Below, piece by piece: positions 327 through 17,718 of a DNA stretch of 35,117 nucleotides (its first letter is position 1; every line of letters starts with the position of its first letter). The position numbers were made by a program, and so were the translations under genes. The stretch spans positions 1 to 35,117 of the forward strand of contig JAPLYY010000024.1 in assembly GCA_026395315.1 (NCBI GenBank), in the 5' to 3' direction. The notes under the pieces are model-generated. The model searched no databases. It worked only from the letters and a program-made list of their open reading frames with translations, and was not told the origin of the DNA. This DNA is from Candidatus Shapirobacteria bacterium (lineage in GTDB: Bacteria > Patescibacteriota > Microgenomatia > UBA12405).

Positions 327-1994
327 AACTGGTACTGAAGCAGTACCAAAGTGGTGTTTTAGTCCTAAATACGGGGCTAATCTGGGGGTTCCAGAAGTTA
401 AATCTGAGTAGGTTGGCATACCATCAAAAATGAGTCCGAAAAAGGCTGCTCGTTTGAGTGGATTAGCCGTATCTATCAACAATTCTTCGAGGTGTTCCAG
501 AAAGTATCCAATGCGCTCCATGACGTTCTCCATATTAATGGTATAGATTTCCTTGGTTTTTTCTTTCTTCTCATGCTCCAGTTGTTCTATATCCGCCTCG
601 GCTTTTAATAGATCTGCCTCCATATATTTAATAGCAACCTCTGATGATAAAAACTTTATTTTATCGGCAGATGCCTGGGCTGATGCTTTTAGCTCCATAA
701 TTTTTTTATCAATTATCGATCCGTCCTGTATTTTGCTACCCACTCGTTCGTTCCATTTTGCTACAACATATTTTTTCAGATTGTCGATATATTCCTGATC
801 AAACTTTAAGTTTCTAACGAAATCTTCGACCGTCTGCTCTAGCTCTTTAGAAGAGACTCGGAAATAGTGTCCGCGCTTGTTGCAATGATAGGCTGGGTAA
901 TATGTTCCTAAATGACCTCGCGAGGCACTACCAAATAAGGGTTTATGACATTCGGGACACATAATGACGCGCTTGTATGGAAATTTTGGATTGTTAATAA
1001 GTTTCTTGGTCATCCAATCCGGCAATTTTTTCTTCCAGAGTTTTACATCGTCACCAGTTTGAGATAACACCAGTTTACCCTTATTGGCTTTATTAAAAGT
1101 ATCAATAGATATTAATCCTTCGAATTTGCCTTTGACGACTTGGCCCTCTGTCCATTTTTCATTATTTATACCGGCAAATATGGGATTTTGGATATAGCGC
1201 CAAAATTGTTTAATTCTTAGAGGTTTACTGCCTCGTTGTCCGATTACTTTTGTCCGATCGTTCGGGTCACGGACAAATTGTTTTCTCGATTTATAACCCA
1301 TCCGGTTAATCTCATCGACTATTTCCTGGTCAGACATAGTGCCCTGGCAACGTAGATCAAACATTTTTATAATCCATTGAGACTCTTCCGGATTGGGTTT
1401 AAGAATAACTCGTTTGCCATGGGGCGTCTCTATTTTCTCATTCACATATCCAAATGGCGGTTGTCTGACCCGATATCCCATACGGACATATCTGATTTCT
1501 GCTCCGATCATACGGGTCATGATATCCCGCATTTCATCTTTAGCTCGTTCTGCCTCAAGAATCTCTGACTTTTTCGTCGGACTATAAACACTCCATTTAT
1601 ACGAAATATTAAGATGTTCGAGAGTATTTACATCTTTGCTCCCAATAATGCCATAAATATCAACTAACTGAACCTTATGGTTTTCCAGCTGCATTTTAAG
1701 ATGGTCGTATAAGTAAGAGCCACCACGGGTAAAACGATCGATGGATTTAATAATAAATAGCTGAATGTTATTCTTCGGATTTTTACAGTAATCGATTGCC
1801 TCCTGAACCGGCTGTTCTTCTTTGGAGGCAGACTCCATGAAGATAAAGAACTTCTTAACTTTGATATTACGTGCCAAAGCAAACCGTTCTATCTGTTCCT
1901 TTTGGGCTTCCGGAGAATCACCTTCTAATCCTTGTTTAAGGGATGAAATACGTATTGCCGCGACTGCATTTTCTTGAACAGATGTTGGGTTCAT
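297..1994 (-). CDS. large serine recombinase (resolvase N-domain + recombinase domain + zinc ribbon)
   Basis: 565-aa ORF. The N-terminus AAIRISSLKQ carries the catalytic-Ser context, followed by SIDRFTRG. A central FGY-type recombinase domain is present, with a Cys pair CPECHKP...YHCN and a C-terminal coiled-coil. Confidence 0.9.
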   Translation of the reverse strand: MNPTSVQENAVAAIRISSLKQGLEGDSPEAQKEQIERFALARNIKVKKFFIFMESASKEEQPVQEAIDYCKNPKNNIQLFIIKSIDRFTRGGSYLYDHLKMQLENHKVQLVDIYGIIGSKDVNTLEHLNISYKWSVYSPTKKSEILEAERAKDEMRDIMTRMIGAEIRYVRMGYRVRQPPFGYVNEKIETPHGKRVILKPNPEESQWIIKMFDLRCQGTMSDQEIVDEINRMGYKSRKQFVRDPNDRTKVIGQRGSKPLRIKQFWRYIQNPIFAGINNEKWTEGQVVKGKFEGLISIDTFNKANKGKLVLSQTGDDVKLWKKKLPDWMTKKLINNPKFPYKRVIMCPECHKPLFGSASRGHLGTYYPAYHCNKRGHYFRVSSKELEQTVEDFVRNLKFDQEYIDNLKKYVVAKWNERVGSKIQDGSIIDKKIMELKASAQASADKIKFLSSEVAIKYMEADLLKAEADIEQLEHEKKEKTKEIYTINMENVMERIGYFLEHLEELLIDTANPLKRAAFFGLIFDGMPTYSDLTSGTPRLAPYLGLKHHFGTASVPVGECFRKNSN

Positions 1995-2143
1995 AGGTTG
2001 TTAGTTGTTTTAATATTCTCTTTTTCGATAATTCGATCGACGATGAGGTTGGCGATTATTTTTAGTCTCTCTTCTACGGATAATTGAGGACCATTTTGAG
2101 GTAAATTCTTCGATTCTTTTGCTTCTACTCTTATTCGTTTCAT
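1991..2143 (-). CDS. small hypothetical protein (50 aa) translationally coupled to the serine recombinase
   Basis: This ORF is not in the supplied track because it is under 60 aa. It translates as ATG...MKRIRVEAKESKNLPQNGPQLSVEERLKIIANLIVDRIIEKENIKTTNNL. Its TGA overlaps the recombinase ATG (ATGA overlap at 1991-1994). Confidence 0.4.
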   Translation of the reverse strand: MKRIRVEAKESKNLPQNGPQLSVEERLKIIANLIVDRIIEKENIKTTNNL

Positions 2144-2162
2144 AGCAGGTATTTATTACAAA

Positions 2163-2180
2163 CTATCACTATAGTGATAG
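2163..2180. promoter_or_regulatory. perfect 18-bp palindrome, candidate operator in a divergent intergenic region
   Basis: CTATCACTATAGTGATAG is its own reverse complement. It lies between the minus-strand small ORF/recombinase operon and the plus-strand coupling-ATPase gene. Confidence 0.5.
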
Positions 2181-2286
2181 TATAGCAAATACAATGCCGG
2201 TGTCAAGCTCTTTTCCTCAACTAAAACCCTTTGCGAAAACCTTGCCTCTGGAGTATCATTCGAGCAACATCGAATATGGTTACTAG

Positions 2287-4929
2287 ATGATGTTAGCTGC
2301 CCAAACACGGACAGCTATGTGGAAAAATAATATTGTTCTCAAAATCTTCCAGAAAGAATTTGTTTCTTACAGTCATTCTTTAAGTCCGTATTTTCTGTCT
2401 TTTTCTCATTTCATTGTTGTCTATCTGCCTTTTCTTATTTGGCTTGTTGTTGCGCTAACTATTTTCTGGATTTGTTACATCTCAGTTAGACTCTACCTGT
2501 TTTGGAAAGAATCAAACAAACCGGTCACGATATTTGAAGTAGTTCCTCCCACATTAACCGAACAGAGTTCGTTCACGACAACTCAACTGTTTACTTCTGT
2601 TCATGGGTTACTACGCCAGCGATCTTGGATACTCCGTTTATTCGATGTCACAAAGTCGTATGCTTTTGAAATTGTTTCAACAAAAGAAAAAGGTATTTGT
2701 TATATCCTGCGGGTTTCTGCTGATGATGCTCAAATCATCAAGAAAAATTTATTAGCATATTTACCTGGTATTCAGATCAAAGAAACGAATGACTATTTTA
2801 AAGACAATTGTGATCAAGGCCATGTCATTGATATCCATTTAACCAGACATTTCGCTTTCCCACTTAAAAAACAAGACAACCTTGAAGAATACGATCCGAT
2901 TGCCTATATCACCGGATCAATGACTAAACTGGTTGATGATGAAATGGTAGCTGTACAAACGATTGTATCGCCTATAAATAGGTCAACGGCGCACGTTATT
3001 GGACGGCTTCGGTCGCTTTTCCTCGGGGACAAAGATGTTCTTTCTGAATTACAAACGACTAATCCGTTAGGCTCTTTTTTGGTACCGATTATCCATTTGC
3101 TTCTGCAAATCTTATTATTTCCATTGGGCTTATTAATCTGGATAGTTACAGTTGGTCGGGAAGGGCCAATCCTGCCAATTATGTCCTTAAAAGGTCAATT
3201 ACCGGATAGCACTTACAGGGATATTGTTGAAACTCAAATCAAGCAAAAGATAGATCAACAATTGTTTACCGTTTCTTTACGGTTACTCACGGTTTCTAGT
3301 TCTTACTCAAACAAATCAAAAATTGAAAAAGGTTTTATTGCCGCGTTGTCTCCATTTACTAATGCAGGGTATCAATCACTTAGACCCAAAAGATATATCA
3401 AAATCAAAGCAGTAAACAAGATACTGCTTTGGCTCTATCAACATAGATTATTGGGTCTCAGTGGCAATTTGACGCTCTCTATGTCTGAGTTATCCGATCT
3501 CTATCATTTCCCCTATACCAGTACCACTAAAACCGAGAATCTTTCAAAATTACACAGCAAAGAATTACCAGCACCGTTATCCCTGAAACAAAAAACTGAG
3601 TGTGATCTGTATTTTGCCAAAAATACGTATGGAGGAACGGAAACGAAAATTGGATTAACGGTTGATGAACGCCGCCGCCATGTCTATATCTTGGGTGCTA
3701 CCGGTACAGGAAAATCCACAATGCTTCTGTCTATGATCCAGCAGGACATCGAGCACAATAAAGGGTTATGTGTGATCGATCCGCACGGAGATTTAATCGA
3801 ACAGGTCTTATCGGTTATTCCTAAATCGCACATTCCTGATGTGGTCTACTTTAACCCTGATGATATAAGTTTCCCGATGGGAATTAATTTATTAGAGTTA
3901 ACCCCAGGCTTGAATCCTGAAAACGCGGTCAGAGAACAGGAGTTTATTGCTGAAAGCATTATTTCAATTTTTCAAAAAATCTACACCGATAAATACTCAG
4001 GCCCGAGAATGGAATATATTTTGAGAAACACAATACATACTGCTTTTACTATTCCGGACGCAACACTCTTTACCATTTACAAACTTCTCATTAATACAGG
4101 CTTTAGAAAATCAGTGGTACGAAACTTAACCGACGAAAATCTTAAGGACTTTTGGAAGTATGAGTTTGCTAAAGCCGGAGATTATCAAAAAGTTAAAATG
4201 ATTTCGCCGATTACCAACAAGATTGGTCGTTTCCTATTTTCTCCAACTGCCAAACGGATTCTCGAACAGGGAAAATCCACCATTAATTTCGACACTATTC
4301 TTAATGACGGGAAAATACTTCTTTGCAATCTTTCGAAGGGCAAGATCGGAGAGGATAATTCCAGTGTCTTTGGAGTCCTCATTATGGCCAAGGTTCAGTT
4401 GGCTTCCTTAAAACGTGCCAGGATGAAGCAAGAAGAACGCAGGGATTTCTATTTATATGTTGACGAGTTCCAAAACTTTGCCACTCCGGCATTTGCTCAA
4501 ATTCTGTCCGAGGCCCGTAAGTATCGACTTGATGCCATATTAGCTCACCAAACAACTTCACAAATTGAAGACAACTCACTGGTAAATGTAACTCTGGCTA
4601 ATACGGGTACAGTAATCTGTTTCCGAACGGCTAATCCTGAAGATGAGCGGATGATATTGCCGCAATTTAGGCCATATATTGAACAGGGAGAAATTGCCAG
4701 CTTGCCCTCGTATCGTTTCTATATACGGCTTGGAGCTATGAATCCGGAAGAGCCGTTCTCAGGCATTACCGTTCCTGTTCATATCGAATACAGTCAAAAA
4801 CGGATAGATGAAGTCATTGAGTCTTCGCGCCATTTATATGCCAGGGAATGGAAAGAGGAATCTCCTAATACACCACCAATTAAAAGTGAGAAAAAAACAG
4901 CTTCACATTCAACAAGCCTCTTACCTTAG
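2287..4929 (+). CDS. type IV secretion coupling protein-like ATPase (VirD4/TraG/TraD family) with N-terminal membrane domain
   Basis: 880-aa ORF. Hydrophobic N-terminal segments are present. Walker A is GATGTGKST, followed by VIDPHGDL. Walker B is LYVDEFQNFAT, followed by ARKYRLDAILAHQTTSQ. Confidence 0.8.
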   Translation: MMLAAQTRTAMWKNNIVLKIFQKEFVSYSHSLSPYFLSFSHFIVVYLPFLIWLVVALTIFWICYISVRLYLFWKESNKPVTIFEVVPPTLTEQSSFTTTQLFTSVHGLLRQRSWILRLFDVTKSYAFEIVSTKEKGICYILRVSADDAQIIKKNLLAYLPGIQIKETNDYFKDNCDQGHVIDIHLTRHFAFPLKKQDNLEEYDPIAYITGSMTKLVDDEMVAVQTIVSPINRSTAHVIGRLRSLFLGDKDVLSELQTTNPLGSFLVPIIHLLLQILLFPLGLLIWIVTVGREGPILPIMSLKGQLPDSTYRDIVETQIKQKIDQQLFTVSLRLLTVSSSYSNKSKIEKGFIAALSPFTNAGYQSLRPKRYIKIKAVNKILLWLYQHRLLGLSGNLTLSMSELSDLYHFPYTSTTKTENLSKLHSKELPAPLSLKQKTECDLYFAKNTYGGTETKIGLTVDERRRHVYILGATGTGKSTMLLSMIQQDIEHNKGLCVIDPHGDLIEQVLSVIPKSHIPDVVYFNPDDISFPMGINLLELTPGLNPENAVREQEFIAESIISIFQKIYTDKYSGPRMEYILRNTIHTAFTIPDATLFTIYKLLINTGFRKSVVRNLTDENLKDFWKYEFAKAGDYQKVKMISPITNKIGRFLFSPTAKRILEQGKSTINFDTILNDGKILLCNLSKGKIGEDNSSVFGVLIMAKVQLASLKRARMKQEERRDFYLYVDEFQNFATPAFAQILSEARKYRLDAILAHQTTSQIEDNSLVNVTLANTGTVICFRTANPEDERMILPQFRPYIEQGEIASLPSYRFYIRLGAMNPEEPFSGITVPVHIEYSQKRIDEVIESSRHLYAREWKEESPNTPPIKSEKKTASHSTSLLP

Positions 4930-4966: not shown

Positions 4967-7078
4967 ATGTCAGAAGTAGATTCCCCAATAAAGTTAGAAC
5001 CTGTCTTTTTTGGTAAGGGAGAAGCGGCTTCTCATCTACATCTTTCAAATACACAACGGGAAGCGGTCAAGGCTATTACCCTGGGTATTACTGAAGTAGA
5101 TGAAGCGGTGAGAGCCCAAGCAGTTCCTGATATCATTAATACTCTTGAAAATGGTCATCCACTCAACCGCTTAATTACAGACCCTGAAGGTAAAACGATT
5201 GGCTATATTGCCTGCGAAGATTTTGTTCCTCAAGAAGCATATATAAAATACCTCGGAACAACAAGGAATTCAGGTCGAAGTCTACTTGAGGAAATACCTG
5301 CTTTCTTAAATTTTGCAAAAGATCATGGATACAAGAAACTTAATTTTCATGGTTGGAATGACCGATTAAATCATGTAATGGAACACTACGGTTTTAAAAA
5401 TACTCGGACTGATGCAATGGGAGGACATAATATAAATTATTATGAACGGTCACTACTTTCCCATAAAGGGAAACCGCTAGATGAGGGGCAATTTGAAAAA
5501 GAATACCAAAAGGTCATGAATATGGTTGAACCTGAGGAACGAAGTAAAAAGGAACGGGAAATTACTCGTGTGTTTCAGGAAGTAAGCGGCAGGCTTACAA
5601 GTTATGAAAAAACATTACCGAGAGAGAAACAAAGATTTGAATTTGGTCAGCGTCAGCAGGATATTTTAAAACTGAAACTCGCGCGCCATTTTCAAAACAG
5701 CGAAACCATTGACGCAAACACCCTCTATGACGCCATCATTGAAAGTCCAAAATTTATTGATAATGACAAAGGTTCCCTGAAGCACTTATTTGAAGTTCAT
5801 GAAGTGAAGACGTTACAAAAACTTGCCGAAGCACGCAAAAAATTGGCTGAAAGATCGGGAGATCAAAGTTTTAACCCGTATGAAAATTTATTTACCACCA
5901 CATCCGGCAAGTATTATATGGCAAGGCTTTTAAATATGCCCCATTTAGAGCAAGAGTCCGCATATCTGAAACACTGTGTAGGGACAAGTGATTCCTATAT
6001 TAATCAAATGAAACGGGGAGAAATTGAAATACTTTCTTTTAGAAATGTACCCAAATTTAATCCACTCACCCAGGAGCTTGAAGGTGATACCCCCATTTTT
6101 ACCATTGAGTATAATCTGAAAACAAATATAATTGAGCAAATTAAAGGCAGAAAAATGAGTGATCGTACAGAGCTGCTTATTTCTCCGAATGATGCTTACT
6201 TTAACGATATAATTGATGCATTAAAAACACTGCGGTCAACCAGAACAGATAACGGCAAGTTAAGAAATTTCACCGAGATTTCCCCAAGTGAATTACAAAA
6301 TATTCATGTTGATGTATATCAGGTCTTTACTGAAAATGGACCTGTTTCCTTTAGAGATTTCGACCCAGATTCTGGAGTGTTTGCCTTAAAGATGGGTAAG
6401 ATGTCGATTGACGCAACTATGTCTCATGAAGATGTTGCTAAAATTGTCAGACTGACAAAAGGAGTTAGGTGTTTACCAGAAGAAATTGCTCTGGCTCAAG
6501 AAGAAGTGTCTGCTCAAACCAAAGTGCTGTATGTCGATAAACTTTCTTCAAGGTTTTTTCAGTGGCTACCTGAAAATGTTGAACATGTCTACGACTCTTT
6601 TTCAGAAGGTAAAATTAGTAGAGAGAGTATAGTGGCTGGAGGTATAAGTGCGAAGGTACTGGTAACTGATATGAAACAAAAGGGAATGGAACCAAGCGAT
6701 TATGCCAAATCAATGATGGAAAATTCGGATTTTGTTACATTAAAGCAATCGGAAAAAATAGACTTAATTCATCTAACGGTTGGTGACATGGGTTTTACTG
6801 ATATACCAACGACCGATGAACTTTATCAGAGAGCTTTGGAGTTAGGTCTAGAACTTTGCCCACCAGAAGTTGGTCCAGCACTTCGTTTGAAAGATGAAAA
6901 TCAAGCAATGTGGAGTAGCTATTATATTGGAATGAAGCAAATTTCTGGCTCTGACGGCGGTCCGGACGTGTTCGAGGTCGGACGCGGTGGCGATACCCCG
7001 TGGTTGCGTAGCGTTTGGGCCTATCCGGGCTATCACTGGGCTCTCGACCGTGAGTTTGTCTTCCGTCTTCGCAAGTAA
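4967..7078 (+). CDS. DGR1 target protein, multidomain, with C-terminal variable region
   Basis: 703-aa ORF lying 37 nt downstream of the coupling ATPase. The last ~47 codons are the VR matching TR1. I saw no N-terminal signal peptide or TM segment. The N-terminal region is GNAT-like by eye. The central YLKHCVGTSDSY...GEIEILSFR is reminiscent of PcfJ-like proteins, but both domain calls are tentative. Confidence 0.85.
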   Translation: MSEVDSPIKLEPVFFGKGEAASHLHLSNTQREAVKAITLGITEVDEAVRAQAVPDIINTLENGHPLNRLITDPEGKTIGYIACEDFVPQEAYIKYLGTTRNSGRSLLEEIPAFLNFAKDHGYKKLNFHGWNDRLNHVMEHYGFKNTRTDAMGGHNINYYERSLLSHKGKPLDEGQFEKEYQKVMNMVEPEERSKKEREITRVFQEVSGRLTSYEKTLPREKQRFEFGQRQQDILKLKLARHFQNSETIDANTLYDAIIESPKFIDNDKGSLKHLFEVHEVKTLQKLAEARKKLAERSGDQSFNPYENLFTTTSGKYYMARLLNMPHLEQESAYLKHCVGTSDSYINQMKRGEIEILSFRNVPKFNPLTQELEGDTPIFTIEYNLKTNIIEQIKGRKMSDRTELLISPNDAYFNDIIDALKTLRSTRTDNGKLRNFTEISPSELQNIHVDVYQVFTENGPVSFRDFDPDSGVFALKMGKMSIDATMSHEDVAKIVRLTKGVRCLPEEIALAQEEVSAQTKVLYVDKLSSRFFQWLPENVEHVYDSFSEGKISRESIVAGGISAKVLVTDMKQKGMEPSDYAKSMMENSDFVTLKQSEKIDLIHLTVGDMGFTDIPTTDELYQRALELGLELCPPEVGPALRLKDENQAMWSSYYIGMKQISGSDGGPDVFEVGRGGDTPWLRSVWAYPGYHWALDREFVFRLRK

Positions 7079-7082
7079 CTTT
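6937..7082 (+). repeat. DGR1 variable repeat (VR1)
   Basis: It gives a 146-nt ungapped alignment to the reverse complement of 8521-8666. There are 27 differences, and 25 of them fall at positions that are A in the TR. The segment TGAGTTTGTCTTCCGTCTTCG near the 3' end is identical in both copies. Confidence 0.92.
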
Positions 7083-7114
7083 GACCCTTTGTTCCTTAGT
7101 TCCTCCTTTACTAC

Positions 7115-8212
7115 TTAGGGATTTTGATTCTTTGACTCTTTGTTCTCCTTGTCGCGAAGCGACTCAGTCATAATTTTTTGTGAGAGCTTGTATGTGTTCC
7201 CATGACGCAATAAACCCAAATATGAATTTAATGTTTCCAATGAGTTGTTTTGTCGCAGTCTTTTCAACATGTGGTGTTTGGTGGCCGTACGGAGAATTCG
7301 ATGATGACCAAAATGTACCCAACCTAAAAAATCAATTCCTGAGGCAAGCGTTTTGATAAAGACTTTTTTAGGATGAAGGGAAAGTTTTAAATTTGTTTCT
7401 AAATATTCGGAAAGTTTTGGAATAAGTTCTTCTAAGTATATTTTACTTTGACTAAAGATGAGAAAGTCGTCAGCATAGCGCAAATAATATTTCACTTTCA
7501 ATTTTCTTTTCACAAATTGATCGAATTGATTCATATAAATATTAACGAGAAGCTGACTGGTTAAATTGCCAAGAGGAAGCCCAACACTAAGTTTTCCAAC
7601 AGTTTCAAAACTATCAATGACTTGTTCCAGAAGCCACATGATATCAGGATCTTTAATGGATTCTTTTAAGATATTTTTGAGAACAGCGTGGTCAACACTG
7701 GCAAAAAATTTTCTAATATCACCCTTTAAAATCCAAGTGGTTTTCGTGTTATTTTGAGATGCCTTTCGTCCAAAACTTCTGGCTCTATCCATGGCCTTAT
7801 ATGTGCCCTTACCCATTCTGCAAGAATAGGAATCAAAGATAAATTGACGATCAAAATAAGGATAGAGACTACGGTGAAGAGCATGATGAACGATTCTATC
7901 GCGGAGACTTGCCTTGTGAATATCTCTTGGTTTGGGATCGCTTATTTTAAAAGCAAAATAGCCACCATGTCGATATGTTTTGGTAATCAAGTCTTCATAA
8001 AGAGAAATCAAATTATCGGAAAAATGTAAGATAAATGTAGCAACATCTTTTCTGTTCTTTTTTCCTCGTAAGAATTCCTGCCATGAGGTTAGTAAATTTT
8101 CAAAAGAAACGATATCATTATACCTATGGTTAAAACGCTTTCTTTTAGCAGCGCTTCGATTTTGATTAAAATCAAAGATGGATATTTGCTCTGGACGAGT
8201 ATTGTTTCTCAT
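7115..8212 (-). CDS. DGR1 reverse transcriptase
   Basis: 365-aa ORF. It carries LPLGNLTSQLLVNIYMNQFD (the DGR-type IGxxxSQ motif), the YADD box (LRYADDFLIF), LSLHPKK and GIDFLGW. It is adjacent to Avd and TR1. Confidence 0.9.
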   Translation of the reverse strand: MRNNTRPEQISIFDFNQNRSAAKRKRFNHRYNDIVSFENLLTSWQEFLRGKKNRKDVATFILHFSDNLISLYEDLITKTYRHGGYFAFKISDPKPRDIHKASLRDRIVHHALHRSLYPYFDRQFIFDSYSCRMGKGTYKAMDRARSFGRKASQNNTKTTWILKGDIRKFFASVDHAVLKNILKESIKDPDIMWLLEQVIDSFETVGKLSVGLPLGNLTSQLLVNIYMNQFDQFVKRKLKVKYYLRYADDFLIFSQSKIYLEELIPKLSEYLETNLKLSLHPKKVFIKTLASGIDFLGWVHFGHHRILRTATKHHMLKRLRQNNSLETLNSYLGLLRHGNTYKLSQKIMTESLRDKENKESKNQNP

Positions 8213-8509
8213 ATTCCTAAGTGTGCCCGATATACCATTGGTACACGAATTGAAAATAAATTTTTAGATCTTTTGGAACTTTCCTATCACACCTACTTTA
8301 CAGAGAAAGATAAAAAGATAGAAAAAATTACTGAATGTATCTCAATTCTAGATACCTTAAAATTTTTTATCTATATTTCTTGGGAGGCAAAATTTATTTC
8401 TCCTAAAAGTTATGAGTCAATGACGGTTATACTTGATACTGTTGGAAAAATGTTTGGTGGCTGGAAGAAAAGTTTGGAAATTTTAGAGAAGAAAAAAGAC
8501 ACCTCTTAG
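8126..8509 (+). CDS. avd: Avd-like four-helix-bundle accessory protein of DGR1 (start uncertain; TTG at 8162 gives 115 aa)
   Basis: The core DGYLLWTSIVSHIPKCARYTIGTRIENKFLDLLEL...MFGGWKKSL aligns by eye with Avd2 (YDFILWLYPIINRLPKNHCLIIGKTLEE...MLTGWIG). Its 5' end overlaps the RT1 5' end on the opposite strand. Confidence 0.7.
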   Translation: MVKTLSFSSASILIKIKDGYLLWTSIVSHIPKCARYTIGTRIENKFLDLLELSYHTYFTEKDKKIEKITECISILDTLKFFIYISWEAKFISPKSYESMTVILDTVGKMFGGWKKSLEILEKKKDTS

Positions 8510-8520
8510 GCGTACAAAAG

Positions 8521-8666
8521 AAAGATACTTTCGAAGACGGAAGACAAACTCATTGTCGAGATTCCAGTGATTGTCCGGATTGGCCCAATTGCTATTCAAC
8601 CACGGGGTGTCGTCATTGCGTTCGACCTTGAACACGTTCGGATTGCCGTCAGAGTCAGTTTTTTGT
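8521..8666 (-). repeat. DGR1 template repeat (TR1)
   Basis: Read on the minus strand it has nine AAY codons, and every one of them differs in VR1 (VR1 has G,D,G,R,V,Y,Y,A,R). It is on the same strand as RT1. Confidence 0.92.
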
Positions 8667-9004
8667 ATGAAGTGCCATCTTTGCCACTGTTCCCGGAAAA
8701 TGCCGAAGAACTGTATTGTATGTGTGATATAAAATCAACCAGCACTCCACACCAAGTATATTTCTTTAAAAGACAGGACTGTAAATCCTCTGTAGAAAGC
8801 CGTAACCATCTGCAATCTCAATTTCCAGCTGTCAGAAAGATCTCGAGAAGCCGTAACCGCTCAATATAATCTATCTAACGAAAGTATAACAGAAACATAT
8901 TGTGTATTTTGATCAATTATATAGATGATTATCAGACGATTTATGTCCTGGTTGGTTAGGAATTATTAAGTGGTATTTTTGGTTGATATCATCATGGTAA
9001 TCTT

Positions 9005-9022
9005 TTACCTACCGGTAGGTAA
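9005..9022. promoter_or_regulatory. perfect 18-bp palindrome, candidate oriT or operator upstream of the replication-relaxation gene
   Basis: TTACCTACCGGTAGGTAA is self-complementary. It lies in the 235-nt AT-rich intergenic region upstream of 9105. Confidence 0.4.
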
Positions 9023-9083
9023 TGAGATATTTTTATTTAGGCCGATAGATAGGGTTATTTATTTTTTACTTTTACTTCTTATT

Positions 9084-9097
9084 CCTTATATATAAGG
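9084..9097. promoter_or_regulatory. perfect 14-bp palindrome adjacent to the RBS of 9105-9914
   Basis: CCTTATATATAAGG is followed immediately by GGAGAGG and the ATG at 9105. Confidence 0.4.
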
Positions 9098-9104
9098 GAG
9101 AGGA

Positions 9105-9914
9105 ATGATACAATCATTCCAGATTCTGCACCAACACAATACTATGGACAACAATACTCTTACAGACAAACAACTGACTATTCTCAAACTACTATACCGA
9201 TTTCGATTTTTAACTAGCACTCACATTCAACACTTACTCAATGACAAAACATCACGACTAACAAATTATCATCTTAAAATTTTAACGACTCAAAATTATA
9301 TAAACAAACACTACACACGAACACTCGGATCAGGCAACCAGCCAGCTATTTATTTTCTCTCGTCAGGAAGTATCAAAGCATTACAAAATATTGAGGGTAT
9401 AGAATCAAAAACACTCCAGCGTATTTATCGGGAAAAAATCAGATCACCACAATTTATCTCTCATGCCATATTTATTGCCCAATATTATCTTTATCTACAA
9501 TCTGAATCTGCAAAATCAAAACATACTCTACACTTCTTCACCAAAACAGACTTATTAGCTCACAAATATATTATCCACCCCTTGCCCGACGCCTATTTTG
9601 CCCGAGTTGATGAAAAGAAAGAAACCAAACGCTATTTTGTCGAAGTTATCGACGAGGGCGCGCCACGGTTTGCCTTAAGAAAAAGAATTGAGCAATATAC
9701 CGACTATATCGACAACGGCACATTTGAAAAGGTAACTAAACACCCATTCCCGACAATCCTCTTAATCTGTCCAACCGTTGGAGTACAAATATACTTAAAA
9801 AAATATCTTGCCAAAATGTACGAAGAATCTTCCCTTGATCAAATAGAAATCTTCATTACCACCAAAGAAGGGGCATTCTTGGGCCAGTGGGAAAAAGTAA
9901 ACCCAGAGGAATAG
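9105..9914 (+). CDS. replication-relaxation family protein (putative relaxase-like function)
   Basis: 269-aa ORF. The N-terminal LTDKQLTILKLLYRFRFLTSTHIQHLL is the typical wHTH opening of Replic_Relax proteins. The conjugation-gene neighbourhood supports the call. Confidence 0.6.
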   Translation: MIQSFQILHQHNTMDNNTLTDKQLTILKLLYRFRFLTSTHIQHLLNDKTSRLTNYHLKILTTQNYINKHYTRTLGSGNQPAIYFLSSGSIKALQNIEGIESKTLQRIYREKIRSPQFISHAIFIAQYYLYLQSESAKSKHTLHFFTKTDLLAHKYIIHPLPDAYFARVDEKKETKRYFVEVIDEGAPRFALRKRIEQYTDYIDNGTFEKVTKHPFPTILLICPTVGVQIYLKKYLAKMYEESSLDQIEIFITTKEGAFLGQWEKVNPEE

Positions 9915-9946
9915 TAGATCGCCAATACTATTCTCTATTATTGGAA

Positions 9947-10312
9947 TTACACTTCATTTACGGCTTTACTAATATCACCGGTGTCATACCTTAATTTGCT
10001 TAAGGAAACATCGGCTCTACCTACAGTGTTTGTTGATAAGCCAATTATTTTTATATCTGGATTGGTTGATCGAATAGCTTCAACGATTTCTCGGCCATCT
10101 GTGCCTGAATGGTCGTCACCAGATAAATTTCCATCTACAATCGCTACTTGAATACCGTCTTGCACAAAACTCGTAATTGAAGCCAATGCGTCTTCTTTTG
10201 TTTGTGCCAATCGCTTGAGACTGTGGCCGCCTTTTTCTAAATCATCACTAATAAATTCCTGCCAATCTGGATCATCCTCAGCTACAAAAACACTTGCGTT
10301 TTCAGGTGCCAT
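9947..10312 (-). CDS. stand-alone response-regulator receiver (CheY-like) domain protein
   Basis: Motifs are VFVAEDDPDW, VAIVDGNLSG and IKIIGLS. I chose the start at the ATG preceded by AAGGAGGAAT. The longer track ORF (to 10399) would begin inside the upstream terminator hairpin flank. Confidence 0.55.
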   Translation of the reverse strand: MAPENASVFVAEDDPDWQEFISDDLEKGGHSLKRLAQTKEDALASITSFVQDGIQVAIVDGNLSGDDHSGTDGREIVEAIRSTNPDIKIIGLSTNTVGRADVSLSKLRYDTGDISKAVNEV

Positions 10313-10400
10313 ATTCCTCCTTTTTTGAACAATTAAGAAGGAGGTTACTCTCTCTCTGAAAGTCAAGTTTTGGGCGTCACAACAAGCTTTTTCATACATA

Positions 10401-10435
10401 AAACAGCCTCAGATTTTTGAGACCTGAGGCTGTTT
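10401..10435 (-). terminator. 12-bp-stem hairpin downstream of the DUF2958 gene
   Basis: AAACAGCCTCAG (10401-10412) pairs with CTGAGGCTGTTT (10424-10435). The A/T runs at the stem ends would allow it to work in either direction. Confidence 0.5.
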
Positions 10436-10444
10436 GAGACTGAC

Positions 10445-10759
10445 TTACTTTTTCGTTTGCGGTATTACCTCGCTGATTCGTTTTTCTCCAAAATATCTGT
10501 CTCGCTCAATACCGATTCCAAACTTTCCGCGATAACTTTGAAGCTCAAACAGTGCAAACGAACCCCACTCATCATTCCAATCGCCGAAGATGGAAACATA
10601 GCCAAAAAACTCCTTCGTGATTGGATCAAATTCAGTTGCATACCAGATACCAGCTCCGGCAGGATTAAAAAATTTCGCAATTACCAGAGGATCGCTAACG
10701 TTTTCTTGTCTGCCCACCTTTCCAAATCTTTTTAATAGTTCTTTAGTTAACAGTTGCAT
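10445..10759 (-). CDS. DUF2958 domain protein (conjugative-plasmid associated)
   Basis: 104 aa. The sequence LLTKELLKRFGKVGRQENVSDPLVIAKFFNPAGAGIWYATEFDP...FFGYVSIFG...ELGSF-type pattern...ERDRYF matches the characteristic DUF2958 layout. Confidence 0.8.
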   Translation of the reverse strand: MQLLTKELLKRFGKVGRQENVSDPLVIAKFFNPAGAGIWYATEFDPITKEFFGYVSIFGDWNDEWGSFALFELQSYRGKFGIGIERDRYFGEKRISEVIPQTKK

Positions 10760-10802
10760 TATTTATTCACCCCCTTTCTTTTTGCTGCTTCCGGAAAATT
10801 AA

Positions 10803-12040
10803 TGTATTTGGAAGCATGCCCATGCTTCCAATACTTGGATGTCTTCAAAGCGGGGTGAGGTTTGCAAGGGCAAGCGAAGCACAGTTTATTGGAGTGAAAC
10901 GGAAACCCTTGCCAAACGAGGGGCAAGACCCCTAAATATCAAATTATTTAAAAAAGTGATTAGGACGCGATACATTTCGGACTCTTATACAAAAATATAT
11001 GAGTCACGAGACAGACAGAACAAGACACATTCTTCCAAAGCTGGGCAAGGGTAATTACAATACCCTGATGAAGCTGATTTCAAATAGTCTTACTTTTAGT
11101 GTTTCTGATTGTGCTAAGTTCAGGCTTCATGTATTGGATCATTATTTTAAACATGGCATCAAGTCCACCTGTCATGCTTTTAATCTTCCAAGGAGCACTG
11201 TGTATGGTTGGAGGAAGTCTTTTTTATCCTCAGACAAAAAGATAGTTTCTCTGGTTCCCAAATCCACCAGGCCAATTAGAACAAGGCAGATGGTGCTTGA
11301 TCTAGAACTTCTGGAGTTTATTAAATCAATGAGAGAAGAATATGGAAATCTGTCCAAATATAAAATCAAGCCATTCTTAGATGAATACTCCAAAAAGAAC
11401 AATCTACCTTTATATGGAACAACCAAAATTGGAGTAATTATTAAAAGAAAACACTTTTTCTTTGAAACTAGATCAAAAAGGAGATTTAAAAGAAAACCCT
11501 TTATAGTGAGGCTAAAAAGATCTCCCAAAGAAACTATCCCGGGATATATTGAAATGGACTCTGTAATCATTCAGGTGATTAACAGAAAATATTTCTTTTT
11601 AACAGCAATTGATATTGTTACTAAATTTGCTTGGGTAAAAATGACCACAAACCATTCCTCAAGGCAAGCCAAGCTTGCCTTAATTGAATTCAAAGAAAAT
11701 TACAAATACTGTTTAAGAACAGTCCAAACTGACAATGGATCAGAATTCTTAAGTGAGTTTGATGAGTATTTGCAGGAGATCAAAATCAAACATGAGTTTA
11801 TCTATCTTAAAAGTCCAAAAATAAATGGTGTGGTTGAGAGATTCAACAGAACCATACAAGAGGAATTTATTCAAAGAAATGATAGTTACATTGATGACAA
11901 GTTTAAATTTAATCAAAAACTACAAAATTATCTAATCTGGTACAATACAAAAAGACCACATTACTCACTGGGACAAATTTCCCCCTATGAGTACATGCAA
12001 AGATTTACCTTAAAAGTCTGAAATGTACCCGACCTATACA
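10803..12040 (+). mobile_element. IS481-like insertion sequence (boundaries approximate)
   Basis: It contains a single rve-type transposase ORF. The putative ends are TGTAT... (10803) and ...TATACA (12040), which are only weakly complementary. No flanking direct repeat was seen. The right end abuts the truncated VirB4-like reading frame. Confidence 0.5.
10999..12021 (+). CDS. DDE transposase with integrase core (rve) domain, IS481-like
   Basis: 340 aa. An N-terminal HTH-like region is followed by IEMDSV, VQTDNGSEF, INGVVERFNRTIQEEF and YNTKRPHYSLGQISP. Confidence 0.85.
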   Translation: MSHETDRTRHILPKLGKGNYNTLMKLISNSLTFSVSDCAKFRLHVLDHYFKHGIKSTCHAFNLPRSTVYGWRKSFLSSDKKIVSLVPKSTRPIRTRQMVLDLELLEFIKSMREEYGNLSKYKIKPFLDEYSKKNNLPLYGTTKIGVIIKRKHFFFETRSKRRFKRKPFIVRLKRSPKETIPGYIEMDSVIIQVINRKYFFLTAIDIVTKFAWVKMTTNHSSRQAKLALIEFKENYKYCLRTVQTDNGSEFLSEFDEYLQEIKIKHEFIYLKSPKINGVVERFNRTIQEEFIQRNDSYIDDKFKFNQKLQNYLIWYNTKRPHYSLGQISPYEYMQRFTLKV

Positions 12041-12042
12041 GT

Positions 12043-13218
12043 GAAAACAAACTGGCACAAAAAAGAAACCTAGATAGCTCGAGTGCAGCACTCACTTTCC
12101 CGTTTGTGTCATCGGAATTGGTACAGGAATCTGGAATTCTTTACGGCATCAACAAATCAAATAACTCGCTAGTCATTATTGATCGCTACAGTCTAAACAA
12201 CGCCAACTCCATTATTTTTGCCCAATCGGGAAGCGGGAAAAGCTATACGGCTAAAGTCGAAATTTTAAGACACTTAATGCAGGGTACCAAGGTTATCATT
12301 ATCGATCCGGAGCGGGAGTACAAACAATTGGCGGCGAGTGTTAACGGTACCTATATCAAACTTTCGAGTAGTTCCAAAGAAAAAATTAATCCGTTTGAGT
12401 ATTCCCAACATTCAGTCACTGATGAAAACAATTTGACTGAACATATTCAAGATCTCACTGAGCTTATTTCCCTGATGGTTGGTTCACTAACCTCAGAGGA
12501 GCGGGCATCGGTCGACCGGGCTTTGCTTCTAACTTATAAAAAGATCGGTCTGACTACCCGTAAGAATGCGAGATCGAAAAAAGCAGAGTATCCACTCCTG
12601 AAAGATTTTTACAAAAATCTCAAAGTCATGAAACATAAAGATCTCTGTGACAGGCTAGAACGGTTTGTCAAAGGTTCACTCTCGACTGTTTTTGATTCTC
12701 AAACCAATATTAAACTCGATAACCGTTTAATTGTTTTTGATATTAAGGATCTCAACGAATCCATCCGATCAATCATGATGATGGTCGTGGCCAATTTTGT
12801 AAACAACGAAGTCAAACAAAATCCACAAAAGAGAATGTTGGTGATAGATGAGGGCTGGCTCCTTTTGCAAGAACCGGAAAGCGCTAGGTTTATTTCAGGG
12901 TTGGTAAGACGTGCAAGAAAATATTATTTAGGAGTCACTATTATTACTCAGCAAGCCAATGACTTTTTGAATCAGGAATACGGAAAAGCTATCGCCAGCC
13001 AATCATCCTTAAGAATTCTGATGCGCCAAGATACGACAACAATTAAAAAAGTAGCCAGTGAATTTCATTTATCCGCCTACGAACAGCACTATTTATTAAC
13101 TTGCGACCGAGGGGAAGCTCTCATTATCGCCGATCAAAATCATGTGGCAGTAAAAGTGGTAGCCTCAGATGAAGAACATCCACTTCTGACCACCGACCCC
13201 AGAGAAGTCTACATCTAG
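12043..13218 (+). pseudogene. VirB4/TrbE-like T4SS ATPase, C-terminal fragment (N-terminal half missing)
   Basis: Walker A is AQSGSGKSY, Walker B is MLVIDEGW, followed by RRARKYYLGVTIITQQ. The frame stays open upstream of the GTG at 12106 (..SENKLAQKRNLDSSSAALTFPF..) as far as the IS end. No N-terminal VirB4 portion is found to the left of the IS. Confidence 0.7.
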
Positions 13219-13220
13219 CT

Positions 13221-13847
13221 ATGAACCCCAAGGTAATACTCACTCTTTGGTCATTTCGGAAAGAGTTGAAGTTCGTCCTAATAGCTTTTATTGCTGTGTT
13301 GATGCTGCCTGTAGTTGCCGTCATTCTTCTTACTCAGGTCGGTATCAATGTTATTTCCAACAAACTGGTTGATCAAAATCCAACGAACCAAGCCATCCAG
13401 ATTAAAGATCCTGTGACAGGTAAAGTTGTCAAAGAAATCAACCCGACGATTGTTTGGCCAACCAAAGGAGTGATTACCCTCGAATTTGGAGAAATGAGTA
13501 TTTATCAACCGTTTCATACAGGGATTGATATTGCCGGAAAATTGGATGATCCGGTCAATCCAGCCATGGATGGTACCGTTATTTATGCCGGAGAAATCTT
13601 TTGGGGATTTGGAAAACACATCATTATTGATAATGGCAATAACATTCAAACTATCTATGCTCACTTAGACAAGATCTATGTCTACAAGGGTCAGAAGGTC
13701 ACTACAGACAGTGTAATTGGCGGCCAGGGTGAAACCGGCTGGGCAACAGGTGTTCATCTTCACTTTCAAGTAAACGTTTACGGGATACCAGTCAATCCGA
13801 GGGTGTTTTTAGGCGACGGATCTCCTCCTCTGACAGCCTTGAATTAG
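13221..13847 (+). CDS. membrane-anchored M23 family metallopeptidase (T4SS-associated cell-wall hydrolase candidate)
   Basis: An N-terminal TM helix is present. Motifs are HTGIDIAG (HxxxD) and GWATGVHLHFQV (HxH). It starts 3 nt after the VirB4-like stop. Confidence 0.85.
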   Translation: MNPKVILTLWSFRKELKFVLIAFIAVLMLPVVAVILLTQVGINVISNKLVDQNPTNQAIQIKDPVTGKVVKEINPTIVWPTKGVITLEFGEMSIYQPFHTGIDIAGKLDDPVNPAMDGTVIYAGEIFWGFGKHIIIDNGNNIQTIYAHLDKIYVYKGQKVTTDSVIGGQGETGWATGVHLHFQVNVYGIPVNPRVFLGDGSPPLTALN

Positions 13848-13910
13848 TGCTTGAAATTGGTATATAATGTATGTATTCTATTTATAGATAGTCCTTAAAT
13901 AGGTAACAAT

Positions 13911-14693
13911 ATGGATACCAAAAACACGATTCTATCTCAAAAAGATTTGGCTTTACTTGAGGCTATAGTCCTTAAGTACGGTCGTGTGGTCACGGTGGCT
14001 CAAATACAGGCTGTTATTGGGGAATTTGGGTCAAACGGCGCAATCCGAAAACGGGTAGCCCAAATGAGCAAAGCTGGCTGGCTTATTCGTCTCAAAAAGG
14101 GGTTATATCTCGTAGTTACGGATATCAGTTCACTGGGCTTTTCCGACACCTCAGAGCTAGTGATTGCTCAGGCACTCCAGAATGACTCGTACGTCTCGTT
14201 TGAGAGTGCTTTACAGCACTACAGCATGTTTGATCAACTTCTAGCCAGGATAGACTCAATTTCAGTTAAAGTGACCAAAACATACAACGTGTTGCAAACT
14301 ACCTATTCATTTTTGAAAATAAAGGATGATTTGTATTTTGGATATACGGAAGAAACACTTGGTAACCAAAAGGTAAAAATTGCTGAAAAAGAAAAGGCTA
14401 TTCTCGATATGCTATATTTTCGATCAACTGATTACGTTATAACGCTTACTCTGGAAAAACTAAGAGAATATAAAGACCAATTCGATTTTAAAAAACTTAA
14501 AAATTATGCGGCCAAATATTCACTCTCAATGATTCGGAAAGTAGGCTTCTTACTTGACCAAATTGGAATTGATACCTCAGATCTATTATCCCTTAGTGAA
14601 TCCAGTAAAAAAAGTCACAATAAGTTAACCAAAACCAGTGATCTTTATAGTACAAAATGGCACCTTTACTATGATTCCCACCTTATTGGATAA
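13911..14693 (+). CDS. abiEi: AbiEi-family antitoxin / transcriptional regulator
   Basis: The N-terminal wHTH pattern is LLEAIVLKYGRVVTVAQIQ...KAGWLIRLKKGLYLVV. It is paired with and overlaps the AbiEii gene. Confidence 0.75.
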   Translation: MDTKNTILSQKDLALLEAIVLKYGRVVTVAQIQAVIGEFGSNGAIRKRVAQMSKAGWLIRLKKGLYLVVTDISSLGFSDTSELVIAQALQNDSYVSFESALQHYSMFDQLLARIDSISVKVTKTYNVLQTTYSFLKIKDDLYFGYTEETLGNQKVKIAEKEKAILDMLYFRSTDYVITLTLEKLREYKDQFDFKKLKNYAAKYSLSMIRKVGFLLDQIGIDTSDLLSLSESSKKSHNKLTKTSDLYSTKWHLYYDSHLIG

Positions 14694-15441
14694 ACAAACA
14701 TTACAGCTTATTAACCGAAAGTATCTGAAATATTCTCCGGTGGCTGCCGAAAAAGATTATTTTCTCGCTCTTGCGCTAGAAGTACTTGAAGAATCTTCAC
14801 TTTATAACAAGTTGGTTTTTAAAGGCGGTACGGCGATTCATCATTGCTATCTTTATCTGGGTAGGTTTTCAGAGGATCTCGATTTTACTTCACTGGACAA
14901 AAATCTCAAAAGTGAAGATGTTACAGGAATATTTACCCCAATTCACTTTTTTGAGGTGAAGAAAGTTTATACCTCAAAAGCAACTATCAAAATCGAACGG
15001 CTAAAATATTCGGGTGTCCTTGATCAACCAAACTCACTAAAATTTGAAATTGATTTTATCCAAAATGTGGTGCTACCACCAAAACAAATGAAATACACCA
15101 ATGTTTGGGGAGTAGATGTAATGGTTAATGTTATGGATATCCGGGAAATTTTTGCAGAAAAGTTACGAGCAATGAGTGATCGTGCCCGGTACAGAGACTT
15201 CTACGATTTTTATTTGATCTCAGAAAAATATAATTTGGATATGGCGGAAACAATAGATCTTGTAAAACAAAAGGAAATTAGAAAACCAATTTCAAAAGAA
15301 TCTATTTTACATAATTGGAAGGTGGTATCGGAACAAAAGAAGGAAGAAATTAATTTGATTTACTACAGACAAGACGTGTTTGACAACGAACGGGGAATTG
15401 AAAAATTGCTTAAAGATTTCAACTTTACGGTGATTGAATAA
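14671..15441 (+). CDS. abiEii: AbiEii/AbiGii-family nucleotidyltransferase toxin
   Basis: Motifs are AAEKDYFLALAL, VFKGGTAIHHCY and RFSEDLDFT. The start MIPTLLDKQ overlaps the abiEi 3' end by 23 nt. Confidence 0.85.
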   Translation: MIPTLLDKQTLQLINRKYLKYSPVAAEKDYFLALALEVLEESSLYNKLVFKGGTAIHHCYLYLGRFSEDLDFTSLDKNLKSEDVTGIFTPIHFFEVKKVYTSKATIKIERLKYSGVLDQPNSLKFEIDFIQNVVLPPKQMKYTNVWGVDVMVNVMDIREIFAEKLRAMSDRARYRDFYDFYLISEKYNLDMAETIDLVKQKEIRKPISKESILHNWKVVSEQKKEEINLIYYRQDVFDNERGIEKLLKDFNFTVIE

Positions 15442-16024: not shown

Positions 16025-16060
16025 TAAGAAAAGTGGGAAAGATAAGTCATAACGCAACGT

Positions 16061-17492: not shown

Positions 17493-17594
17493 ATGTATAC
17501 GGATATCTTGTGTTGTGCGTCTTCATACACTATTATGATATATAGATGAACTGGGTATCGGCCTAGTTTGTTTGCATAGAAAAAAGGATTGATT

Positions 17595-17717: not shown

Positions 17718-17718
17718 C

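What the first reader, a model, noticed from the sequence alone, without database searches (positions are those of the whole stretch)
7115..8666. DGR1 has a non-canonical architecture, with avd inverted between TR and RT and overlapping the RT start antiparallel
The canonical order is target-avd-TR-RT on one strand. Here TR1 and RT1 are on the minus strand, while the target/VR and avd are on the plus strand. avd sits between TR1 and RT1 in antisense. The only start codon available for RT1 is at 8212. The conserved Avd core needs a start at or before 8162. The two 5' ends therefore overlap on opposite strands by at least 51 nt. Any contiguous TR-spacer-RT transcript would be antisense to the whole avd gene. 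This implies either separate TR RNA and RT mRNA or antisense coupling of avd expression.
Basis: partly seen in the sequence, partly recalled or inferred. Interest (0 to 1): 0.7.

Follow-up and report, generated by a model that had tools for sequence, protein, structure and literature searches.

The report
CPR-type DGR with head-to-head avd/RT

Summary
VR1 (6938-7082, +) and TR1 (8521-8665, -) differ almost only at TR adenines. RT1 (7115-8212, -) and avd1 (8162 or 8126 to 8509, +) sit head to head and overlap by 51 nt (range 27-87).

The interpretation as a non-canonical architecture does not hold. TR-(avd)-RT is architecture B3 of Wu et al. 2018, which covers 90% of CPR DGRs. All 76 related loci with a detectable Avd have it.

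The overlap is shared with the closest relatives: 33 of the 59 nearest RT clusters start at the same ATG, which is the complement of Avd's conserved His codon.

- An extended -10 promoter-like motif lies about 230 nt upstream of TR.
- A roughly 210-nt structured RNA follows it, with strong covariation and no Rfam match.
- A hairpin plus U-run follows TR and overlaps the avd stop codon.
- No conserved structure is predicted antisense to the rest of avd.

In most relatives, but not in this window, the avd/RT junction carries a length-polymorphic G8-12 or (AG)n tract.

Verdict: a new member of a known kind, with leads beyond the original finding.

The parts
4967..7078 (+). DGR1 target gene (703 aa) with a PcfJ-like domain in the N-terminal half and VR at the C-terminus
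   Evidence: ORF; PF14284 PcfJ E 8e-7; same gene next to RT in L001
6938..7082 (+). VR1; diversified positions span about 6948-7072, target stop codon at 7076-7078
   Evidence: Inverted repeat I1; alignment with TR1
7115..8212 (-). RT1, DGR reverse transcriptase of 365 aa, start ATG 8212-8210
   Evidence: RVT_1 E 9e-23. YADD and LGNLTSQ motifs are visible in the translation. It is the only canonical start upstream of the conserved N-terminal region. The same start is used in 33 of 59 nearest homologue clusters.
8162..8509 (+). avd1, probable TTG start at 8162 (alternatives ATG 8126 and TTG 8186), stop 8507-8509
   Evidence: bAvd PF22296 E 7e-13, profile positions 16-106 at residues 25-116 of the 8126 ORF; TTG conserved at this position in relatives
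8162..8212 (.). Antiparallel, codon-aligned overlap of the RT1 and avd1 5' coding ends (51 nt; 87 nt if avd starts at 8126, 27 nt if at 8186)
   Evidence: The ATG at 8212 is the complement of the His codon in Avd's conserved H-I-P-K, a triplet present in the nearest relatives.
8521..8665 (-). TR1 (template repeat); clear homology with VR runs from about 8658 to 8521
   Evidence: 24 of 26 mismatches at TR adenines
8490..8513 (-). Hairpin ACGCCU-AAG-AGGUGU (8513-8499) followed by CUUUUUUCU (8498-8490), directly 3' of TR and overlapping the avd stop codon. It is terminator-like and sits where the Bordetella Avd-binding stem-loop lies.
   Evidence: Scan hit; an equivalent hairpin plus U-run in 38 of 41 loci; the only conserved structure 3' of TR
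8666..8876 (-). Conserved structured non-coding domain directly 5' of TR. Helices: P1 8864-8843, P2 8814-8791, P3 8752-8741 paired with 8676-8665, P3a 8737-8725, P3b 8711-8689.
   Evidence: nhmmer; alignment of 38 loci. RNAalifold gave 41 pairs, 37 with compensatory changes. 94.8% of cells are paired versus 40-47% when slid, and 0 of 500 shuffles reach the observed value. Coordinates. The covariance model hit is 8651-8785 (-), 100.9 bits. No Rfam match.
8883..8891 (-). Extended -10 promoter-like motif TGTTATACT, 226 nt upstream of TR
   Evidence: TGnTAnnnT lies 190-300 nt (mostly 223-246 nt) upstream of TR in 28 of 41 loci, against 0.13 expected per window

Best explanation
DGR1 is an ordinary member of the CPR (Patescibacteria) DGR lineage with architecture B3, TR-(avd)-RT. 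Here the target lies downstream of RT on the other strand, and the cassette sits inside a conjugative or integrative element.

It most likely works as three transcription units (inferred, not shown):
1. A discrete template RNA of about 380 nt on the minus strand. Its parts are an extended -10 promoter (8891-8883), a 210-nt structured 5' domain (8876-8666) whose 12-bp helix P3 ends 7 nt before TR, TR itself (8665-8521), and a hairpin plus U-run (8513-8490).
2. avd on the plus strand.
3. RT on the minus strand.

avd and RT are read divergently from a junction so compact that their first 17 codons overlap codon-for-codon on opposite strands. The RT start ATG at 8212 is the complement of Avd's conserved His codon.

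In most relatives the junction holds a hypervariable G or AG repeat. In the window's lineage that repeat has decayed to AAAAGAAAG, which leaves RT fixed in frame with this ATG.
For: Architecture:
- All 76 related loci with a detectable Avd have it on the opposite strand directly upstream of RT.
- TR is on the RT strand, 2-30 nt from the avd stop in nearly all of 40 loci.
- The layout is published as B3, 90% of the CPR set.

Overlap:
- ATG 8212 is the only canonical RT start.
- The same M-R-N-N-x-N-P-x-Q-I-S-L-F-D start opens 33 of 59 nearest RT clusters.
- A conserved TTG avd start is seen in relatives.
- The junction alignment shows the shared AGGAATATG and the repeat lost in the window, L001 and L031.

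Separate TR RNA:
- Promoter-like motif in 28 of 41 loci versus 0.13 expected.
- Covarying 5' domain.
- One full-length covariance-model hit per locus, always just 5' of TR on the RT strand: 66 hits, with a single window hit at 8651-8785.
- Hairpin plus U-run after TR in 38 of 41 loci.
- Consensus folding energy 3' of TR is only -1.9 kcal/mol, against -45.7 for the 5' domain.

Context: serine recombinase, T4SS coupling protein, Replic_Relax and a transposase.
Against: - There are no transcript data.
- The window's own post-TR hairpin is weak: 6 bp including one G-U.
- Promoter-like hits in 6900-9200 are not above chance (11 versus 7.4 +/- 3.5), and no RT or avd promoter could be placed.
- The AGGA before ATG 8212 is only 2 nt from the start, too close for a typical Shine-Dalgarno.
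- Conservation of the RT N-terminal peptide is forced by avd on the other strand, so it does not prove translation.
- Antisense-stop codons are not detectably avoided (0/17 here, but also 0/17 in most relatives without overlap).
- In Bordetella the primer and RT-binding RNA lie 3' of TR. If B3 elements need the same, the RNA must run on into antisense avd.
Confidence: 0.62

Rival explanations
1. TR and RT are made as one read-through transcript, as in Bordetella. That transcript is antisense to the whole of avd, and this antisense RNA tunes Avd production. The hairpin after TR would be only an Avd-binding stem-loop, not a terminator.
For: - In the prototype, avd-TR-brt RNA carries essential elements 3' of TR (PMC6182149; bioRxiv 10.1101/2023.10.23.563531).
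- That study reports stem-loops just 3' of TR in 207 of 278 DGRs, CPR included.
- The window's hairpin is weak.
- No independent RT promoter was found.
Against: - The hairpin is followed by a U-run in 38 of 41 loci, the signature of an intrinsic terminator.
- No conserved structure is predicted in the 130 nt beyond it.
- The segment just 5' of TR pairs with an upstream strand, not a downstream one.
Confidence: 0.22
2. There is no real overlap, because one of the two genes starts elsewhere. Either RT starts at a downstream or non-canonical codon, or avd starts beyond 8212.
For: - The stored gene call for the window's RT is 298 aa, and Avd is called as 81 or 78 aa in L001 and L002, so gene callers avoid the overlap.
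- 3 of 60 RT ORFs and 11 of 60 avd ORFs in relatives have no ATG/GTG/TTG at all, so unusual starts may occur in this clade.
Against: - A start at codon 68 deletes the N-terminal region conserved in all homologues.
- RT codons 18-30 contain no ATG/GTG/TTG/ATN/CTG.
- An avd start beyond 8212 would delete the first helix, which the bAvd profile and Avd2 both include.
- 33 of 59 homologue clusters keep the same open frame from the same ATG.
Confidence: 0.1
3. The inverted avd is an assembly or scaffolding error in this contig.
For: None found.
Against: The same order and strands occur in 76 independent related loci from many assemblies and in the published B3 class.
Confidence: 0.01

Closest known systems
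Architecture B3 DGRs, TR-(avd)-RT, of the CPR set (Wu et al. 2018, Nucleic Acids Res 46:11, PMC5758913)
   Same: - Order and strands of TR, avd and RT.
- Patescibacterial relatives.
- A target with a PcfJ-like domain upstream of the VR (their category g).
   Different: - The target lies downstream of RT on the opposite strand. Only 4 of 40 relatives here share that; 34 of 40 have it upstream on the same strand.
- The RT and avd coding starts overlap by 51 nt.
- In the text I could read, that paper does not describe the overlap, the 5' RNA domain or the junction repeats.
Bordetella phage BPP-1 DGR (mtd-avd-TR-brt) and its DGR RNA (Handa et al. 2018, PMC6182149; bioRxiv 10.1101/2023.10.23.563531)
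   Same: - Adenine-specific TR-to-VR transfer.
- An RT plus Avd pair.
- A stem-loop immediately 3' of TR, where Avd binds in Bordetella.
- A duplex that involves the segment immediately 5' of TR, the position of the cPRT stop duplex.
   Different: - avd is on the other strand, between TR and RT.
- No 140-nt spacer with conserved structure lies 3' of TR.
- The partner strand of the duplex next to TR, and about 200 nt of conserved structure, lie 5' of TR.
- The RNA looks like a separate unit with its own promoter and terminator.
Simple-sequence-repeat phase variation at promoters or 5' coding ends (poly-G tracts of Campylobacter and Neisseria, e.g. PMC8355987 and PMC5084427)
   Same: In 53 of 60 non-redundant loci (the window included), a G6-12 (mostly G8-12) or (AG)6-20 tract sits exactly at the avd/RT junction. 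It differs in length between otherwise identical sequences.
   Different: The window's DGR1 has no such tract. The link to expression is inferred. No paper found ties such tracts to DGRs.
Divergent overlapping transcription units ('excludon'-type arrangements; from my own knowledge)
   Same: Two genes on opposite strands whose 5' ends overlap, so their mRNAs would be complementary.
   Different: The two products act together as a complex, and no transcripts have been mapped.

Membership tests
Diversity-generating retroelement | Reverse transcriptase of the DGR type | tested here: met
   RVT_1 E 9e-23; YADD and LGNLTSQ motifs in the translation; 8000 homologues, with named ones from Patescibacteria
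Diversity-generating retroelement | TR/VR near-repeat whose differences fall on TR adenines | tested here: met
   24 of 26 mismatches at TR adenines
Diversity-generating retroelement | VR at the 3' end of a protein-coding target | tested here: met
   VR 6938-7082 ends at the stop of ORF 4967-7078
Diversity-generating retroelement | Avd accessory protein | tested here: met
   PF22296 bAvd, 49.4 bits against a cut-off of 40
Diversity-generating retroelement | IMH / IMH* pair at the 3' ends of VR and TR | tested here: inconclusive
   The 3' ends share GAGTTTGTCTTCCGTCTTCG and then diverge. The function of this segment was not tested.
Diversity-generating retroelement | Ongoing diversification of VR in the population | not testable with these tools
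   Needs read-level metagenome data.
Architecture B3 (Wu et al. 2018) | Core order TR-(avd)-RT with avd on the reverse strand | tested here: met
   definition
Architecture B3 (Wu et al. 2018) | CPR host lineage | tested here: met
   Indirect: the nearest loci are mostly titled Patescibacteria, Nomurabacteria, Saccharibacteria, Staskawiczbacteria and similar. The window's own organism is not given.
Bordetella-type DGR RNA (avd 3' end - TR - Sp) | Stem-loop immediately 3' of TR | tested here: met
   Window 8513-8499; 38 of 41 loci
Bordetella-type DGR RNA (avd 3' end - TR - Sp) | About 140 nt of structured spacer 3' of TR carrying the stop-duplex strand, thumb ring and RT-binding stem-loop | tested here: not met
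   The region is antisense to avd, and its consensus folding energy is -1.9 kcal/mol with only the first hairpin predicted.
Bordetella-type DGR RNA (avd 3' end - TR - Sp) | Duplex formed by the segment just 5' of TR | tested here: met
   12-bp helix P3, with 10 of 12 pairs showing double changes, but the partner lies about 65 nt upstream rather than 3' of TR.
Simple-sequence-repeat contingency locus | Hypermutable homopolymer or dinucleotide tract at the promoter or 5' coding end | tested here: not met
   No tract at 8126-8212. The only such repeat in the window is (CT)5 at 10348-10357. The feature is met in 53 of 60 non-redundant loci.

The most novel reading that the evidence does not exclude
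B3-type DGRs use a rearranged, effectively circularly permuted, template RNA. The strand that closes the duplex next to TR, and the RT-binding structures, have moved from the 3' spacer (Bordetella) to a 210-nt domain 5' of TR. Only the Avd-binding hairpin and a U-rich 3' end remain downstream. This would be what allows avd to sit antisense right behind TR.

In most members of the clade, the divergent avd/RT junction carries a slippage-prone G or AG tract that switches the mutagenesis machinery on and off. The window would represent a lineage locked ON after losing the tract.
Probability: 0.3. Interest if true: 0.75.

Novelty: new member of a known kind. Interest (0 to 1): 0.45.

Why it matters
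The architecture itself adds nothing new. Three consequences are useful.

1. Gene callers systematically truncate either RT or Avd in these loci, so catalogues of CPR DGR proteins carry wrong N-termini.
2. The covarying RNA domain 5' of TR, absent from Rfam, gives a concrete candidate for the missing cis-acting RNA of the most common DGR type in CPR bacteria. It also gives a defined roughly 380-nt RNA to test in vitro with RT1-Avd1.
3. If the junction repeats in relatives gate RT or Avd expression, hypermutation in these organisms would itself be phase-variable. That bears on how DGR activity is controlled in nature.

Tried and rejected
- Rfam, at gathering threshold on the whole window and at E<=5 on 8100-9150, returned only chance-level hits.
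- The sigma-70 and terminator scan of 6900-9200 gave promoter-like sites no more often than in shuffles. Only the post-TR hairpin was of interest.
- A single-sequence fold of 8490-8900 (-) was not more stable than shuffles, z = -0.59. Structure emerged only from the comparative analysis.
- I tested whether avd avoids codons that would be stops in the RT frame. There is no signal: 0/17 in the overlap, but also 0/17 in most relatives without overlap.
- I searched for conserved structure in the antisense-avd region 3' of TR and found none beyond the first hairpin.
- Paul et al. 2017 (Nat Microbiol, PMC5436926) is not held, so I cannot say whether it mentions the overlap, the 5' domain or the repeats.
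- Literature searches combining DGR with homopolymer, poly-G, phase variation or RNA-structure terms found nothing relevant.
- I tried to read a -35/-10 pair around the G tract and an RT promoter inside avd by eye. Neither was convincing, so I dropped both.
- DGR2 was only glanced at.

Full report
**1. The observation**

The window holds an inverted repeat, 6938-7082 against 8521-8665 (145 nt, 82% complementary). When the second copy is read on the minus strand, 24 of the 26 differences fall on its adenines. That copy is therefore the template repeat (TR1, minus strand). The first copy is the variable repeat (VR1) at the 3' end of the plus-strand ORF 4967-7078.

Between them lie two genes:
- RT1, 7115-8212 on the minus strand (RVT_1, E 9e-23).
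- An Avd homologue in the plus-strand ORF 8126-8509 (bAvd PF22296, E 7e-13).

**2. The start codons and the overlap**

On the RT strand, ATG 8212 is the first start after a stop. The next ATG/GTG/TTG is at codon 68. Residues 23-67 align with every homologue and with RT2 of the same window, so they must be translated. The 298-aa gene call stored for this window (P0002) is a truncation.

For avd:
- The Pfam profile places the family's first position near residue 10 of the 8126 ORF.
- Avd2 aligns from there.
- In the relatives a TTG at the position of 8162 (or three codons earlier) is the commonest start, and in several loci the only available one.

The overlap is therefore 51 nt. It would be 87 nt if ATG 8126 is used and 27 nt if TTG 8186 is used. 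RT codons 18-30 hold no start-like codon, so the overlap cannot be removed from the RT side.

**3. The architecture is conserved and already named**

I fetched 104 related loci through the RT protein.
- In all 76 loci where an Avd homologue could be detected, it lies on the opposite strand directly upstream of RT. The rest mostly end at a contig edge.
- In 40 of 40 loci with a detectable TR/VR pair, TR is on the RT strand, and in nearly all of them its 3' end lies within 2-30 nt of the avd stop codon.
- The named records are Patescibacteria.

Wu et al. 2018 (PMC5758913) define architecture B3 as TR-(avd)-RT, with parentheses meaning the reverse strand. [quoted passage not shown] They also list PcfJ-like targets among CPR DGRs.

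It is neither an artefact nor new. One less common trait is the target lying downstream of RT on the other strand. Only 4 of 40 relatives, the closest ones, share it. MyDGR calls opposite-strand TR/VR rare.

**4. Where the overlap comes from**

A nucleotide alignment of the junction shows that the triplet ATG at 8212 and the AGGAAT before it are the complement of Avd's conserved H-I-P-K codons. They are present in the nearest relatives whether or not the RT frame reaches them.

Among the 59 nearest RT clusters in the protein database:
- 33 begin with the same M-R-N-N-x-N-P-x-Q-I-S-L-F-D, that is, at this ATG.
- 20 begin in another frame of the same stretch.
- Most read through an (AG)n tract as ERERER or RERERE.

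So RT starting inside antisense avd is a shared property of this subclade. The peptide's conservation is forced by avd, however, and does not by itself prove translation.

In more distant relatives RT usually starts at an ATG equivalent to residue 23. There the two starts are 0-50 nt apart, or overlap by a few bases.

**5. The junction in relatives**

Of 60 non-redundant loci (the window included), 53 carry a simple repeat exactly between the two starts, usually G8-G12 and in some (AG)6-20.
- Runs of eight or more G or C occur 44 times in the 6.2 kb of junctions and twice in the other 316 kb.
- (AG)6 or longer occurs 7 times in the junctions and never outside.
- Seven pairs of loci from different assemblies are identical over 250 nt on each side and differ only in tract length.

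In most loci both genes have a start between the tract and their core, so the tract lies in the leader or promoter region. In a minority it lies inside the RT or avd frame.

The window, L001/L002 and L031-33 have no tract. The window reads AAAAGAAAG there. I read this as a decayed repeat that leaves RT fixed in frame. That is inference. I found no paper linking such tracts to DGRs.

**6. The template RNA**

The 230 nt directly 5' of TR on the TR strand are conserved in sequence across the clade.
- RNAalifold on 30 loci predicts 41 pairs, 37 with compensatory changes.
- On the named structure, 94.8% of cells pair, against 40-47% when partners are slid. There are 332 double changes against 48-90, and no shuffle of 500 reaches the observed values.
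- A covariance model of the 3' half finds exactly one full-length match per locus, always on the RT strand just 5' of TR. That gives 66 matches. There is one match in the window (8651-8785, 100.9 bits) and none at DGR2.
- Rfam has no match.
- A TGnTAnnnT motif lies 190-300 nt (mostly 223-246 nt) upstream of TR in 28 of 41 loci, against 0.13 expected. In the window it is at 8891-8883.
- Directly 3' of TR, 38 of 41 loci have a G+C-rich hairpin followed by a U-run that overlaps the avd stop codon. The window's hairpin is at 8513-8490.
- Beyond that hairpin, the 130 nt antisense to avd show no conserved structure.

**7. How it most likely works**

*Shown:* the parts, their order, their conservation and the covariation.

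*Inferred:* the template RNA is its own unit, running from the promoter through the 5' domain and TR to the hairpin and U-run. It meets avd tail to tail and does not need to cross it. avd and RT are transcribed divergently from inside each other's 5' ends.

The main rival is read-through from TR into RT. It rests on the Bordetella precedent, where the primer, the stop-duplex strand and the RT-binding stem-loop lie 3' of TR, and on the weakness of the window's own hairpin.

In the B3 loci, the segment just 5' of TR pairs with an upstream strand (helix P3). Short hairpins and conserved single strands lie inside the loop that P3 closes. This suggests that the elements found 3' of TR in Bordetella have been relocated 5' of TR. 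That is a hypothesis only.

**8. Context and verdict**

DGR1 lies in what looks like a conjugative or integrative element. Its neighbours include a serine recombinase, a T4SS coupling protein, Replic_Relax, DUF2958, an IS481-type transposase, a TraG-like ATPase and AbiEi/AbiEii. L001 and L002 share the synteny.

The finding as written is a correct description of a known architecture, so its novelty is low. The antiparallel overlap is real and shared by the closest relatives. The follow-up produced two leads that a DGR specialist would want tested: the structured RNA 5' of TR, which is in the window, and the junction repeats, which are only in relatives.

Noticed in passing
Relatives, e.g. L014:3964-3972, L038/L039, L040/L005, L051/L052, L003:845-866; absent at window 8126-8212: A G8-G12 homopolymer or an (AG)6-20 tract sits exactly between the divergent avd and RT starts in 53 of 60 non-redundant loci. 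There are 44 G/C runs of 8 or more in the junctions against 2 elsewhere. Seven otherwise identical locus pairs differ only in tract length. This looks like a slippage switch on the DGR machinery.
   Followed up: partly
window 8666-8891 (minus strand): A conserved structured RNA domain lies directly 5' of TR, with an extended -10-like motif in front of it. Covariation is strong and there is no Rfam match. It is present once per related locus.
   Followed up: yes
window 8490-8513 and the same place in 38 of 41 loci: A hairpin plus U-run on the TR strand overlaps the avd stop codon, so the last Avd codons are encoded by a terminator-like or Avd-binding stem-loop. The consensus in relatives is CTCTCCC...GGGAGAG TTTTGTTT.
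   Followed up: yes
Protein clusters P0003-P0060; loci L003, L043, L084, L090, L004, L035: RT ORFs of the nearest subclade run through the (AG)n tract in two different frames: 33 start M-R-N-N..., and 20 start in the ..KIEALxRERERE.. frame. Near-identical L043 and L084 differ by three AG units, which keeps the frame. L004 has no in-frame canonical start and L035 only a GTG at the edge of the conserved core.
   Followed up: partly
Relatives: 11 of 60 avd ORFs and 3 of 60 RT ORFs (L004, L038, L062) have no ATG/GTG/TTG upstream of the conserved core. Either non-canonical starts are used or these are OFF states.
   Followed up: partly
window 7115-8212; L001:617-862; L002:1976-2212: Automatic gene calls truncate one partner to avoid the overlap: RT to 298 aa in the window, and Avd to 81 or 78 aa in L001 and L002.
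   Followed up: yes
window 15680-19069: A second DGR has the same-strand order avd2 (15680-16024), TR2 (16061-16177), RT2 (16347-17492). Its VR2 (18953-19069) lies near the 5' end of an 859-aa ORF (18805-21384), and many TR2/VR2 differences are not at adenines.
   Followed up: no
window 297-4929 and 9105-15441: The neighbours suggest a mobile element: serine recombinase, T4SS coupling protein, Replic_Relax, receiver domain, DUF2958, IS481-type transposase, TraG-like ATPase, M23 peptidase, and the AbiEi/AbiEii toxin-antitoxin pair.
   Followed up: partly
window 26323-26425 / 27868-27970 and 27964-28070 / 30546-30652: Two long inverted repeats (103 nt at 100% and 107 nt at 98%) flank ORFs 26282-27820 and 28287-30363. 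A 38-nt related copy lies at 291-328.
   Followed up: no
L003, L009, L022, L026: Contigs titled 'uncultured Gammaproteobacteria' carry this CPR-type DGR cassette, which probably reflects mis-binned or mislabelled MAG contigs.
   Followed up: no
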